From a virus: a stretch of DNA of 64,000 nt. The notes below the pieces were generated by a model. The model was given only the letters and a program-made list of their open reading frames with translations, ran no database searches and was not told the DNA's origin. Of this stretch, positions 2,841-56,571 are shown in pieces. The stretch covers positions 1-64,000 of IMG/VR virus record IMGVR_UViG_3300042890_000947, one strand, 5' to 3'. The stretch's first letter is position 1. Each line of letters opens with the position of its first letter. Made by a program: the position numbers and the translations under genes.

Positions 2841-3043
2841 TGGATGATAGAAACAAATATGTTATTGAGGATTCACGGATAACATCTATAGATTTTCCGC
2901 CTAAATCTTCAGACTGGCAATGTCATTTGTTTGGTTCCAAAAGAGGTCTTGTCTACACTCCTTTTGAAGGACAAGAACCTAATTGGTTCCATCGTAAGAT
3001 GCAAGAGTTGATCTTAGGTTTTAAATGGAAAAAGGTAAAGTAA
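2837..3043 (+). CDS. hypothetical protein
   Basis: ORF coupled to both neighbours. Confidence 0.5.
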   Translation: MMDDRNKYVIEDSRITSIDFPPKSSDWQCHLFGSKRGLVYTPFEGQEPNWFHRKMQELILGFKWKKVK

Positions 3044-3547
3044 ATGGCAATCGATTTGTATGGTGATGTTTATGTTGACAATTGGGACTATGCCAGAAAG
3101 ATAGTCACTCTTGGTTACAGTAAACCTTTTTATCGCATAAATTCATTTATTACACCAAACAGGGAATGCTCAATCTCATTCCATGAAGAAGAATTTAATT
3201 TTATACAGCCAAAATATAGTGAGATAGATTGTCCAGGACTATACGCGATATATGAAAAGACGATCAACGATATGTCTTGTCTATACACTGGAGGAAGTAA
3301 TCATTCTATGAGACAACGAGTATATAGATTTGTGAAGGAACTTCATGGAGTTTCTAGACATGATGAAGATCATCCTGGAGCAAGAAAGGCTCGGCGTGCT
3401 GGTGTAAATCCTAATAATCTTTTGGTAAAGTTTTTTCCAAAAAGTGAATTTCCAAAAGTGGAAAATCTTGTTGTTGAGTATGAAACACTTGATGAAACAG
3501 TAGCAATAATGTTAAAGTCTAGGTTTAATACCAGAAAGAAAGCTTAA
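3044..3547 (+). CDS. GIY-YIG-like nuclease
   Basis: PGLYAIY...LYTGGSNHSMRQRV motif and later Glu. Confidence 0.5.
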   Translation: MAIDLYGDVYVDNWDYARKIVTLGYSKPFYRINSFITPNRECSISFHEEEFNFIQPKYSEIDCPGLYAIYEKTINDMSCLYTGGSNHSMRQRVYRFVKELHGVSRHDEDHPGARKARRAGVNPNNLLVKFFPKSEFPKVENLVVEYETLDETVAIMLKSRFNTRKKA

Positions 3548-51287: not shown

Positions 51288-51364
51288 GGTTCCGTAGTTC
51301 AACTGGATAGAGCAGTCGCCTTCTAAGCGACGAGTTGGGGGTTCGAATCCCTCCGGAACCGCCA
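51288..51364 (+). tRNA. tRNA-Arg(TCT)
   Basis: GTCGC-CTTCTAA-GCGAC; canonical cloverleaf, CCA. Confidence 0.92.
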
Positions 51365-55739: not shown

Positions 55740-55815
55740 GGCGGATAGGACAAAGAAGGTAAGTCGTCGGTCTCATAAGCCGAAGGAGTTGGGGCAGATC
55801 CAACATCCGCAACCA
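55740..55815 (+). tRNA. tRNA-Met(CAT), initiator-like
   Basis: TCGGT-CTCATAA-GCCGA; 1:72 mismatch; atypical T-loop GGCAGAT. Confidence 0.7.
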
Positions 55816-56115: not shown

Positions 56116-56207
56116 GCATTCGTATCCCCCTCCGCTACGAACGGAGAGAAAGGTAACTGGAAATGGTATAACAACTAATGCAGGTTCGAATCCTGTCGAA
56201 TGCTCCA
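56116..56207 (+). tRNA. D-armless tRNA-Arg(ACG)-like RNA with 33-nt variable region
   Basis: GCATTCG/CGAATGC-T-CCA; CTCCG-CTACGAA-CGGAG; GCAGG-TTCGAAT-CCTGT. Confidence 0.7.
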
Positions 56208-56223
56208 TTAAAGGAAAAAATTA

Positions 56224-56571
56224 ATGAAGCTTATTAAAACTTTAATTGCTACATCATTTTTATTTGTGGCAATGCCTTCTGCTCATGCTACCGTTGCTTC
56301 CTGGTATGATTGTGTGAAACCGGGTGAATGTAGTAAGAGCAAGATTACTGCTAACGGGGAAAGATTTAACCCCAATGCGTTGACAGCGGCGCATAAGACT
56401 CTTCCTTTCGGTACAAAAGTTCGTATTACCTATAAGGGAAGGTCAGTTGTCGTGAGAATAAATGATCGCGGCCCATTTATTAAGGGTCGTCATATTGATC
56501 TTTCCAGGGCTGCTGCTCGGAAGATTGGATGTCATGGAGTTTGTAAAGTACAAATAGCTGTGATAAAATAA
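56224..56571 (+). CDS. RlpA-like DPBB lytic transglycosylase
   Basis: signal peptide; [32 protein letters not shown]. Confidence 0.9.

What the first reader, a model, noticed from the sequence alone, without database searches (positions are those of the whole stretch)
56116..56207. D-armless tRNA-Arg(ACG) with a D-loop-like motif placed after the anticodon arm
Seen: a perfect 7-bp acceptor stem with T-CCA, a perfect anticodon arm (ACG) and a canonical T arm. Only 7 nt (TATCCCC) replace the D arm, and a 33-nt variable region follows the anticodon arm. That region contains AACTGGAAA, resembling the D-loop AACTGGATA of tRNA-Arg(TCT) at 51288, and TATC can pair with its GGTA. Established: D-armless tRNAs are typical of mitochondria, and bacterial ArgRS reads D-loop A20. 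Inference: a topologically rearranged tRNA that rebuilds the elbow from the 3' side, or a tRNA mimic. It is the only CGN-reading candidate in the window.
Basis: partly seen in the sequence, partly recalled or inferred. Interest (0 to 1): 0.7.

Follow-up and report, generated by a model that had tools for sequence, protein, structure and literature searches.

The report
Rewired non-cloverleaf phage arginine tRNA
This 92-base gene of a freshwater phage is very probably a working arginine tRNA that reaches the usual L-shape by a different wiring, with the anticodon hairpin nested inside the helix that replaces the D stem, a design that gene finders miss and that I found in no paper.

Summary
Window 56116-56207 (+) has a 7-bp acceptor stem, encoded CCA, an ACG anticodon arm and a T arm. 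It has no D hairpin, and ARAGORN and the Rfam tRNA model both miss it.

It belongs to a large family. I collected 113 distinct sequences plus 18 divergent ones from phage, virus, metagenome and a few bacterial records.

- The three classic stems are 99.8-100% paired across 90 distinct sequences, with many compensatory changes.
- The linker after U8-A9 pairs with the bases just before a D-loop-like UAAYUGGA that lies after the anticodon arm. This helix covaries in 11 forms.
- A Levitt-type pair covaries without exception (86/86 A with U, 4/4 G with C).
- 128 of the 131 anticodons are arginine (ACG, UCG, GCG, UCU, CCU). Three are isoleucine.
- In four phage genomes examined whole (three complete, plus the 52%-complete record the window lies in), it is the only CGN reader.

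Charging and decoding are inferred, not shown. Why the wiring differs is unknown.

The scan noted this family before on other DNA. New here are the isoleucine members, the chromosomal copies, and the covariation evidence for the helix and the Levitt-type pair.

The parts
56116..56122 (+). acceptor stem, 5' strand (7 nt)
   Evidence: Pairs 7/7 with 56197-56203. All 7 pairs show compensatory changes in the family, 99.8% paired.
56123..56125 (+). U8, A9 and a variable base (T here)
   Evidence: T8 and A9 are invariant in 90 distinct sequences. Position 10 is T/A/G/C.
56126..56129 (+). 5' strand of the helix that replaces the D stem (CCCC): 56126-56127 pair with GG 56153-56152. 56129 can pair with G56148.
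   Evidence: CC/GG is invariant in the main clade. In divergent members it is replaced by GC/GC, CAC/GTG, CGG/CCG, CTC/GAG, CAG/CTG and others. Column 14-33: CG 57, GC 8, UG 2, unpaired 23.
56130..56146 (+). anticodon arm: 5-bp stem and loop CTACGAA, anticodon ACG at 56137-56139
   Evidence: The stem is 100% paired and 5/5 pairs show compensatory changes. The loop is CTACGAA in 84 of the 90 distinct sequences, but the retrieval patterns fixed it.
56147..56151 (+). linker AGAAA between the anticodon stem and the GG strand (G56148 may pair with C56129)
   Evidence: The first three positions vary and partly covary with 56128-56129. AA is nearly invariant.
56152..56153 (+). 3' strand of the D-stem equivalent (GG)
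   Evidence: Invariant in the main clade and covaries with the 5' linker in divergent members.
56154..56161 (+). D-loop equivalent TAACTGGA: the likely counterparts of A14, A15, G18, G19 and A20
   Evidence: AACTGGA is identical to the start of the D loop of the window's tRNA-Arg(TCT). The motif ARYTGGA occurs in 19/48 ordinary Arg tRNAs against 18/1379 other tRNAs of the same loci. The third letter (A or G) covaries with the base before the T stem.
56162..56177 (+). variable insert with a weak hairpin (TGGT 56164-56167 / ACTA 56174-56177)
   Evidence: 23 of 90 distinct sequences carry a hairpin here with compensatory changes. The other 67 have only 4-9 nt.
56178..56179 (+). AT before the T stem. 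T56179 is the likely counterpart of U48.
   Evidence: AT in 113/113 distinct sequences, although no search pattern fixed it. T goes with TAA (86/86) and C with TAG (4/4).
56180..56196 (+). T arm (5-bp stem with one G-T, loop TTCGAAT)
   Evidence: 100% paired, 4/5 pairs show compensatory changes.
56197..56207 (+). acceptor 3' strand, discriminator T56204, encoded CCA
   Evidence: CCA is encoded in 106/113 distinct sequences. Discriminator: T 57, G 22, A 10, C 1 of 90.

Best explanation
It is a gene for a functional arginine tRNA (anticodon ACG) that reads CGU, CGC and CGA after the usual A34-to-inosine editing by the host. It folds into the normal L-shape from a different strand order.

In a cloverleaf the order is: D-stem strand, D loop, D-stem strand, anticodon arm, variable loop. 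Here the chain runs:
1. Acceptor stem, then U8-A9.
2. Straight into the strand that corresponds to D-stem positions 22-25 (CCCC).
3. Directly on into the anticodon arm.
4. After that arm, a short linker, then the partner strand (GG, like 10-13).
5. A D-loop-like UAACUGGA (like A14, A15, G18, G19, A20).
6. A linker ending in AU (U48), then the T arm.

The anticodon hairpin is therefore nested inside the D-stem equivalent, and the secondary structure is a three-way junction. The elbow contacts (GG with the T loop, U8 with A14, 15 with 48) and the ArgRS identity elements (A20, C35, G36) are kept.

Shown here: the conserved anatomy, the helices, the tertiary-pair covariation, and the distribution of anticodons and genomes. 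Inferred: processing by RNase P, charging by host ArgRS, editing by TadA, and use on the ribosome.
For: **Family size and selection**
- 149 full-length copies lie in 148 loci, giving 90 distinct sequences. Adding genome and metagenome hits and named phages gives 113 distinct sequences. The covariance model found 18 more divergent ones.
- Classic stems: acceptor 99.8% paired, anticodon 100%, T 100%. 17 of 21 pairs show double changes, and 0/500 shuffles reach the observed values. RNAalifold finds 16 of 17 pairs with compensatory changes.

**D-stem equivalent**
- It occurs in 11 covarying forms. Matched strands pair over 2.89 bp on average, against 1.23 for shuffled strands (0/2000 shuffles reach the observed mean) and 1.92 for cross-paired strands.

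**Tertiary core**
- TAA goes with T before the T stem in 86/86 sequences, and TAG goes with C in 4/4.

**Identity**
- 128 of 131 anticodons are Arg and all of those have C35.
- GG is followed by A in 88/88 Arg members.
- The 3 Ile-anticodon members all have A73, and 2 of them have T after GG. This matches Table 1 of PMC9976931 (passages read).

**Role in genomes**
- All 89 family loci that ARAGORN scanned are tRNA arrays. ARAGORN calls the element in 0 of 89.
- In four phage genomes examined whole (X1 with 41 tRNAs, RHph_I1_18 with 24, G001 with 39, and the 52%-complete G000 with 29), no ordinary CGN-reading Arg tRNA exists.
- The window's ORFs use 321 CGT+CGC+CGA codons out of 646 Arg codons.
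- No phage ArgRS was found in 5 records.

**Reality of the DNA and a hint of RNA**
- 14 DNA runs from 12 studies hold half or more of the stretch's words.
- Metatranscriptome contigs from 3 studies carry a relative. One 221-nt contig runs unspliced across 56119-56264.
Against: - There is no direct evidence of a mature RNA, of charging, of inosine, or of ribosomal use. The RNA-library contigs could derive from DNA, and they mostly belong to a relative.
- The single-sequence fold is not better than shuffles.
- Nearest-neighbour thermodynamics gives the CC/GG pairs only 0.26 mean probability. RNAalifold does not predict them.
- In the main clade CC/GG never varies, so the helix rests on the divergent members.
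- Stenotrophomonas phage DLP_6 and Microbacterium phage Zooman also carry an annotated ordinary tRNA-Arg(ACG). The element is therefore not always needed as the sole CGN reader.
- The search patterns fixed some of the motifs counted. CTACGAA, AAGGTA and TGGA were each fixed in some scans.
Confidence: 0.8

Rival explanations
1. It is a tRNA-like decoy or mimic that is not used in translation. On this reading it is made and folded like a tRNA-Arg and serves to bind or divert a protein that recognises tRNA-Arg, such as an anticodon nuclease, ArgRS, TadA or a defence sensor.
For: - No charging or decoding data exist.
- Two named phages carry it beside an ordinary tRNA-Arg(ACG). It also occurs as an accessory copy in bacteria that keep their ordinary tRNA-Arg(ACG). 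It must therefore offer something beyond plain decoding, or else be redundant.
- The unusual core would fit a molecule selected for binding rather than for the ribosome.
Against: - A decoy has no need for an encoded CCA (106/113), a canonical T loop, a conserved elbow, a 15:48-type pair, and a discriminator drawn from the set allowed for Arg.
- Anticodons drift only within NCG/NCU.
- The Ile-anticodon members change the discriminator to A in 3 of 3 and the position-20 base to T in 2 of 3. That pattern is expected from selection by synthetases.
- In four phage genomes examined whole (three complete, one 52% complete) it fills the only gap in an otherwise full tRNA set.
Confidence: 0.1
2. The gene is a precursor that is cut and rejoined, or spliced, into an ordinary cloverleaf, as permuted or intron-bearing tRNA genes are.
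For: The 33-nt insert is unusual. Permuted and split tRNA genes do exist in algae and archaea (recalled, not checked here).
Against: - The acceptor 5' and 3' strands already sit at the two ends, so circular permutation cannot restore the D arm.
- Removing the insert would remove the only GG/A20 equivalents.
- Short family members have only 4-9 nt after the motif, so no intron is there to remove.
- No joint lies inside 56116-56207 in the RNA-library contigs. One contig crosses the whole element unspliced.
Confidence: 0.02
3. It is a decaying tRNA pseudogene or an assembly artefact.
For: Gene finders and Rfam reject it. One family copy, L076, is truncated and fused to another tRNA.
Against: - There are 131 distinct sequences with near-perfect stems and compensatory changes.
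- The core positions are invariant.
- The same sequence is present in 14 DNA runs and in several identical viral contigs, including L033, L067, L068 and L071.
Confidence: 0.01

Closest known systems
Ordinary bacterial and phage tRNA-Arg (class I cloverleaf, Rfam RF00005), e.g. this window's tRNA-Arg(TCT) at 51288-51364
   Same: - A 7-bp acceptor stem and CCA.
- The anticodon loop CTACGAA. That this equals the loop of bacterial tRNA-Arg(ACG) is recalled.
- T arm with loop TTCGAAT.
- The D-loop letters AACTGGA.
- U8, A14/A15-like bases, U48-like base, and C35/G36.
   Different: - No D hairpin lies 5' of the anticodon arm. One D-stem strand lies before the anticodon arm and the other after it, so the anticodon arm is nested in the D-stem equivalent.
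- The D loop is open-ended and runs on to the T arm.
- There is no separate 4-5-nt variable loop.
- RF00005 gives no hit at E<=10 and ARAGORN gives 0/89.
Mitochondrial D-armless tRNAs (e.g. mammalian mt tRNA-Ser(AGY), nematode mt tRNAs). Sources: review PMC7609411 (passages read) and PMC9427863 (search listing only).
   Same: No D hairpin. A short connector lies between the acceptor and anticodon stems. The anticodon helix is extended.
   Different: - By the review's account, those RNAs have lost the D loop and are shortened and flexible. This family keeps a GG and A20 equivalent, a canonical T loop and a 15:48-type pair.
- It is as long as or longer than a normal tRNA (78-96 nt).
- It occurs in phages and bacteria, not organelles.
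Class II tRNAs with a long variable arm (Leu, Ser, bacterial Tyr)
   Same: 23 of 90 distinct family sequences, the window's among them, carry an extra hairpin between the anticodon and T arms.
   Different: Class II tRNAs keep a normal D arm. Here the hairpin is optional: 67 of 90 lack it. It follows the relocated D-loop motif.
Permuted, split or intron-bearing tRNA genes (Cyanidioschyzon merolae, Nanoarchaeum; recalled, not read here)
   Same: The order of tRNA segments in the gene differs from the textbook order.
   Different: Those genes are processed into an ordinary cloverleaf. Here both termini are already in place, and no cut-and-join can produce a cloverleaf.
Laboratory-evolved non-canonical tRNA in E. 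coli (PMC11551756; start of the abstract, seen in a search listing)
   Same: A structurally non-canonical tRNA acting, or meant to act, in bacterial translation.
   Different: That tRNA is engineered. [quoted passage not shown] This family is natural and widespread.

Membership tests
tRNA (functional class) | 7-bp acceptor stem, discriminator and 3' CCA | tested here: met
   56116-22 pairs with 56197-203, T at 56204, CCA at 56205-07. The family is 99.8% paired and CCA is encoded in 106/113.
tRNA (functional class) | Anticodon arm: 5-bp stem, 7-nt loop with U33 and a purine at 37 | tested here: met
   CTCCG-CTACGAA-CGGAG. 100% paired in the family.
tRNA (functional class) | T arm with the GTTCRA-type loop | tested here: met
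   GCAGG-TTCGAAT-CCTGT. 100% paired in the family.
tRNA (functional class) | Tertiary core: U8, A14, the 15:48 pair, and G18-G19 reaching the T loop | tested here: inconclusive
   All candidate bases are present and invariant. The 15:48-type covariation holds in 90/90. The three-dimensional contacts themselves cannot be tested with these tools.
tRNA (functional class) | Aminoacylation and use on the ribosome | not testable with these tools
   Indirect evidence only: the anticodon and identity pattern and genome complementation.
Canonical cloverleaf tRNA (Rfam RF00005) | A D hairpin (positions 10-25) between the acceptor stem and the anticodon arm | tested here: not met
   Only 7 nt lie between the two stems. 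Their partner strand lies after the anticodon arm.
Canonical cloverleaf tRNA (Rfam RF00005) | Score at or above the RF00005 gathering score (29 bits), or detection by ARAGORN | tested here: not met
   No RF00005 hit at E<=10 on this strand. ARAGORN does not call it in the window or in any of 89 loci.
Bacterial tRNA-Arg identity set (PMC9976931 Table 1) | C35 and G36 or U36 | tested here: met
   ACG here. All 128 Arg-anticodon members are NCG or NCU.
Bacterial tRNA-Arg identity set (PMC9976931 Table 1) | A20 in the D loop | tested here: inconclusive
   An A follows the second GG (A56161), as in 88/88 Arg members. That this A takes the place of A20 is inferred from the motif's identity with ordinary Arg D loops, and from its change to T in 2 of 3 Ile members.
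Bacterial tRNA-Arg identity set (PMC9976931 Table 1) | Discriminator A, G or U at position 73 | tested here: met
   T here. The family has T 57, G 22, A 10, C 1.
Mitochondrial-type D-armless tRNA | Loss of the D loop and of the D-loop/T-loop contact; a shortened molecule | tested here: not met
   A D-loop-like UAACUGGA and a canonical T loop are kept. Length is 92 nt.

The most novel reading that the evidence does not exclude
The rewiring is a second natural solution to the tRNA L-shape. Phages maintain it because it escapes a host factor (or a phage's own factor) that recognises the D-arm side of cloverleaf tRNA-Arg, such as a tRNA-cleaving defence nuclease or a modification enzyme. Translation of Arg codons then continues when ordinary tRNA-Arg is attacked.

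The scaffold is general and mobile. It has been re-used for isoleucine. As a small two-gene module (ordinary GCG plus rewired UCG) that would need no A-to-I editing, it has also entered bacterial chromosomes.
Probability: 0.2. Interest if true: 0.95.

Novelty: new variant of a known kind. Interest (0 to 1): 0.85.

Why it matters
The cloverleaf is treated as universal outside organelles. A 2024 paper's abstract states that all known bacterial tRNAs adopt it (PMC11551756, start of the abstract, seen in a search listing).

This family suggests otherwise. A different strand order keeps the helices, the elbow candidates and the synthetase identity elements, and it is common in phage tRNA arrays.

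- **Annotation.** Phage tRNA sets are undercounted. Seven named phages carry the gene unannotated, and 'missing' CGN readers are not missing.
- **tRNA biology.** It is a natural experiment on what RNase P, ArgRS, IleRS, TadA, EF-Tu and the ribosome really need from the tRNA core.
- **Synthetic biology.** It offers a natural non-cloverleaf scaffold that might be orthogonal to D-arm-dependent enzymes.
- **Phage-host conflict.** A rewired core is a candidate way to evade tRNA-targeting defences. This is untested.

Tried and rejected
1. The near-identity search of phage records found nothing. The first relatives came from the sensitive mode.
2. Rfam gave no family. The minus-strand Plastid-ycf2 match (18 bits, E 1.1) is chance.
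3. Single-sequence folding is uninformative (z -1.23).
4. It needs position 10 to pair with an invariant G, but position 10 is T/A/G/C. The divergent members (GC/GC, CAC/GTG and others) fit only the register shifted by one.
5. RNAalifold and base-pair probabilities do not recover the D-stem equivalent. I rely on covariation instead.
6. No phage-encoded ArgRS (PF00750) was found in 5 records.
7. 'Arg-only' is rejected. L401 has two copies with GAT and TAT anticodons, and L353 4640-4721 has GAT.
8. 'Phage-only' is rejected. 9 of 88 pattern hits in bacterial assemblies are true members. One lies between uvrC and pgsA in a Rhodobacteraceae chromosome.
9. Vertical inheritance there is rejected. 1 of 301 genomes of that family has the pair, and the flanks are unrelated between carriers.
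10. Strict mutual exclusion with ordinary tRNA-Arg(ACG) is rejected. Both occur in DLP_6 and Zooman. Among the 148 family loci, ARAGORN made five distinct tRNA-Arg(ACG) calls (L046, L063, L099, L183, L207), and those in L046 and L099 are themselves odd.
11. RNA runs hold small shares (0.06-0.18). Parts of the stretch without cover mean nothing. The adapter letters abutting 56119 and 56123 in one run are only a hint of a molecule end.
12. Literature searches found no description.
   - Review PMC7609411 has 0 mentions of phage or virus.
   - The XacN1 paper PMC5852040 used tRNAscan-SE 1.3.1 and does not mention the element (passages read). Its Supplementary Table S3, the tRNA list, could not be seen and may bear on whether the element was listed as a pseudogene.
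   - Subscription journals are not covered.
13. My looser parser also returned four false candidates (L184, L042, L058, L435). I excluded them by eye before giving the 86/86 and 4/4 counts.
Full report
**What is in the window.**
- A perfect 7-bp acceptor stem (56116-22 with 56197-203), T at 56204, and CCA at 56205-07.
- An anticodon arm at 56130-46 with loop CTACGAA (anticodon ACG).
- A T arm at 56180-96 with loop TTCGAAT.
- Only seven bases (TATCCCC) where the D arm should be.
- 33 bases between the anticodon and T arms.

It lies in a tRNA array (51.2-60.5 kb) where ARAGORN tRNAs but not this one. The only Arg tRNA called is TCT. Rfam's tRNA model finds four neighbours in the 1-kb stretch searched but nothing here at E<=10. 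On its own the sequence folds no better than shuffles (z -1.23), so the window alone cannot exclude chance.

**The host genome.** The window belongs to an 86-kb virus record that is about 52% complete. It has a DNA polymerase of PHROG family 262, tail-fibre genes and a DnaB-type helicase. 14 DNA runs from 12 lake, freshwater and drinking-water studies hold half or more of the stretch's words.

**It is one member of a large family.**
- A sensitive search of named phages found the same element, unannotated, in Xanthomonas phages X1 and BUDD and in Rhizobium phage RHph_I1_18. These copies show compensatory changes in all three stems.
- A pattern made from the conserved letters found 89 stretches in IMG/VR, of which 86 are clearly the same thing.
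They added 6 and 52 further loci.
- A parser that demands acceptor, anticodon and T pairing found 149 copies in 148 loci, giving 90 distinct sequences.
- With hits from bacterial assemblies and metagenomes, and with four more named phages, the count is 113 distinct sequences. The four phages are Stenotrophomonas DLP_6, Microbacterium Zooman, Xanthomonas XacN1 and Mesorhizobium Cp1R7A-A1.
- A covariance model built from the 90 (R1) scores the window's copy at 92.8 bits. Among the hits I inspected below the divergent group, the best is an ordinary tRNA-Arg(TCT) at 37.9 bits.
- R1 also revealed 18 more divergent members at 40-77 bits.

**The classic helices are under selection.** On the alignment of 90 distinct sequences:
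- The acceptor stem is 99.8% paired, and the anticodon and T stems are 100% paired.
- 17 of 21 tested pairs show changes on both sides.
- None of 500 shuffles reaches the observed values, and sliding the partners by 1-3 columns collapses pairing to 31-44%.
- RNAalifold independently predicts the three stems, with 16 of 17 pairs compensated.
- T8, A9, C11, C12, the GG, the TAA and the AT before the T stem are invariant. AT occurs in 113/113 distinct sequences even though no search pattern fixed it.
- 23 of the 90, the window's among them, carry an extra hairpin in the insert, with compensatory changes. The other 67 have only 4-9 bases there.

**The D stem is not lost but rewired.**
- In the main clade, the two C's after T-A-N and the GG before TAA never vary, so they cannot be tested there. 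The next two bases covary in part with the bases after the anticodon stem (C-G 57, G-C 8, U-G 2, unpaired 23; A-U 8, G-U 3, unpaired 79).
- The divergent members settle it. The linker and the bases just 5' of the TAA/TAG motif change together: GC/GC, CAC/GTG, CGG/CCG, CTC/GAG, CG/CG, CGAG/TTCG, CGGT/ACCG, CCG/CGG, CGA/TCG and CAG/CTG.
- Matched strands pair over 2.89 bp on average. Shuffled strands give 1.23 (0 of 2000 shuffles reach the observed mean) and strands cross-paired between members give 1.92.
- The supported register in the window is C56126-G56153 and C56127-G56152, with C56129-G56148 next to the anticodon stem.
- The anticodon arm is thus enclosed by the D-stem equivalent. The molecule is a three-way junction, not a cloverleaf.

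**The tertiary core looks canonical.**
- The segment after the GG strand, TAACTGGA, matches the D loop of ordinary Arg tRNAs. The window's own tRNA-Arg(TCT) has D arm GTTC-AACTGGATA-GAGC. The motif ARYTGGA occurs in 19 of 48 ordinary Arg tRNAs of the family loci but in 18 of 1379 other tRNAs.
- Reading the motif as A14, A15, Y16, U17, G18, G19, A20, the base before the T stem should be the partner of 15. It is T in 86 of 86 members with TAA and C in 4 of 4 members with TAG (after I removed four false candidates by eye). A15:U48 and G15:C48 are the two classic forms of the Levitt pair (the pair is named in PMC9976931; the rest is recalled).

**It behaves as an arginine tRNA.**
- Scans that excluded A34 found the same architecture with UCG, CCU, GCG and UCU anticodons.
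- Of 131 distinct sequences, 128 have Arg anticodons: ACG 93, UCG 10, UCU 18, GCG 4, CCU 3. All keep C35 and G36 or U36.
- The base after the second GG is A in 88 of 88 Arg members parsed. Discriminators are U, G, A and once C.
- Table 1 of the identity review lists A20, C35, U/G36 and A/G/U73 for bacterial Arg (PMC9976931, passages read).
- Three members carry Ile anticodons: GAU and UAU side by side in L401, and GAU in L353. All three have A73, and two have U after GG. The same table lists A73 and U20 for bacterial Ile. That is the pattern expected if cognate synthetases select these RNAs.

**It fills a gap in tRNA sets.**
- All 89 family loci first examined are tRNA arrays. ARAGORN calls the element in none. 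80 have another tRNA within 300 nt, and only 2 hold an ordinary tRNA-Arg(ACG).
- In four phage genomes examined whole, no ordinary CGN-reading Arg tRNA exists. These are X1 (41 tRNAs), RHph_I1_18 (24), a 344-kb IMG/VR genome (39), and the 52%-complete genome the window lies in (29). In the 344-kb genome the rewired ACG gene sits next to Arg TCT and CCT.
- The window's 53 long ORFs use CGT 172, CGC 94 and CGA 55 times, out of 646 Arg codons.
- None of five records encodes an ArgRS, so a host enzyme would have to charge it.
- Against a purely gap-filling role, DLP_6 and Zooman also have an annotated ordinary tRNA-Arg(ACG).

**It is not confined to phages.**
- Of 88 pattern hits in one-genome-per-species assemblies, 9 are true members.
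- Five sit in tRNA arrays (Marinifilum, Methyloligellaceae, Bradyrhizobium, Cellvibrionaceae and others).
- In three alphaproteobacterial assemblies, a rewired UCG gene lies immediately beside an ordinary tRNA-Arg(GCG) (1 nt apart in L222). In the Rhodobacteraceae chromosome the pair sits between uvrC and pgsA, with no phage genes in 8 kb.
- The 160-bp pair is 93-94% identical in L231, and a 264-bp stretch around it is 90% identical in L293, while the flanks are unrelated. It is found in 1 of 301 genomes of that family. The carriers keep an ordinary tRNA-Arg(ACG)-like gene. It is therefore a small mobile accessory module.
- The same GCG-plus-rewired-UCG pairing recurs in viral contigs L096 and L100. 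Such a pair could read all CGN codons without A-to-I editing. This is inference.

**RNA evidence is weak.**
- Four metatranscriptome runs from three studies hold contigs matching 56122-56162 that continue into the sequence of a relative (the L165 type).
- One 221-nt contig covers 56119-56264 with 8 differences and no joint.
- Adapter letters abut 56119 and 56123 in that run.
- Contigs cannot prove transcription, and DNA may be present in such libraries.

**Mechanism, with what is shown and what is inferred.**
- Shown: a conserved RNA gene with acceptor, anticodon and T helices. It also has a covarying helix that joins the post-U8-A9 linker to the strand preceding a relocated D-loop motif, a covarying 15:48-type pair, and anticodons and identity positions that track Arg (rarely Ile).
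- Inferred: the D-stem equivalent stacks on the anticodon stem as in a normal tRNA, and the strand after it rises to the elbow so that GG meets the T loop and A20 is offered to ArgRS. The chain then returns through U48 to the T stem. The transcript is processed, edited at A34 and charged by host enzymes and is used for CGU, CGC and CGA codons.
- Why this wiring is kept is unknown. Escape from a factor that recognises the D-arm side of tRNA-Arg is an attractive but untested idea.

**Comparison with what is known, and novelty.**
- It works like a tRNA-Arg, but it fails the defining cloverleaf feature (a D hairpin 5' of the anticodon arm) and the Rfam and ARAGORN models.
- It differs from mitochondrial D-armless tRNAs, which have lost the D loop and are shortened (PMC7609411, passages read).
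- Seven literature searches found no description. The XacN1 paper did not report it.
- The scan's own notebook holds at least eight earlier notes on other genomes with the same reading. I saw them only after reaching my reading and do not count them as evidence. Two of them call the family Arg-only or phage-only, which my contradict.

**Verdict.** It is most likely a functional rewired tRNA-Arg(ACG) (0.8). The rivals are a decoy (0.1), a processed precursor (0.02), and a pseudogene or artefact (0.01).

Noticed in passing
window 55740-55812 (+): Rfam's tRNA model scores 35.5 bits here for a tRNA with a CAT anticodon and an odd T loop (GGCAGAT). ARAGORN does not call it, so the window holds at least 31 tRNA-like genes.
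   Followed up: no
L401 (metagenome contig, minus strand, two adjacent copies) and L353 4640-4721: Three members of the rewired architecture carry isoleucine anticodons (GAT, TAT, GAT). All have discriminator A, two have T instead of A after the GG, and none has an encoded CCA.
   Followed up: partly
L222 6987-7146 (-), L231 7150-7308 (-), L293 124-283 (-): A two-gene module, ordinary tRNA-Arg(GCG) followed 1 nt later in L222 by a rewired tRNA-Arg(UCG), lies in three alphaproteobacterial assemblies with unrelated flanks. In L222 it sits between uvrC and pgsA. The module could read all CGN codons without inosine.
   Followed up: partly
L076 about 2990-3125 (+): A family copy is cut off inside its T stem and runs straight into another odd tRNA-like gene with an ACG anticodon and a two-base CC connector. 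ARAGORN makes similar odd Arg calls (connectors CC, GA, AC) in L044, L046, L057, L058, L098 and L099. This may be a second unusual Arg tRNA type.
   Followed up: no
L251 6606-7943 (+), Bradyrhizobium sp. BR13661: An RtcB RNA ligase gene (Pfam PF01139, E 4e-66) lies right after a 17-tRNA array that contains a rewired tRNA-Arg(ACG).
   Followed up: no
L005 (Rhizobium phage RHph_I1_18), 1501-1584 and 951-1274: In the feature table, locus tags jump from EVB91_036 to EVB91_034 exactly where the rewired gene lies. ARAGORN also calls a tmRNA-like gene at 951-1274 and a tRNA with a 4-base anticodon at 1344-1417.
   Followed up: no
L124 (viral contig): One contig holds four rewired Arg genes: ACG, UCG, UCU and CCU. 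That is a nearly full isoacceptor set in the new architecture.
   Followed up: partly
window 56225 onward (+): An ORF starts 18 nt after the tRNA's CCA and opens with a signal-peptide-like N-terminus. Several relatives keep the same tRNA-then-ORF arrangement. I did not identify the protein.
   Followed up: no
I did not examine it.
   Followed up: no
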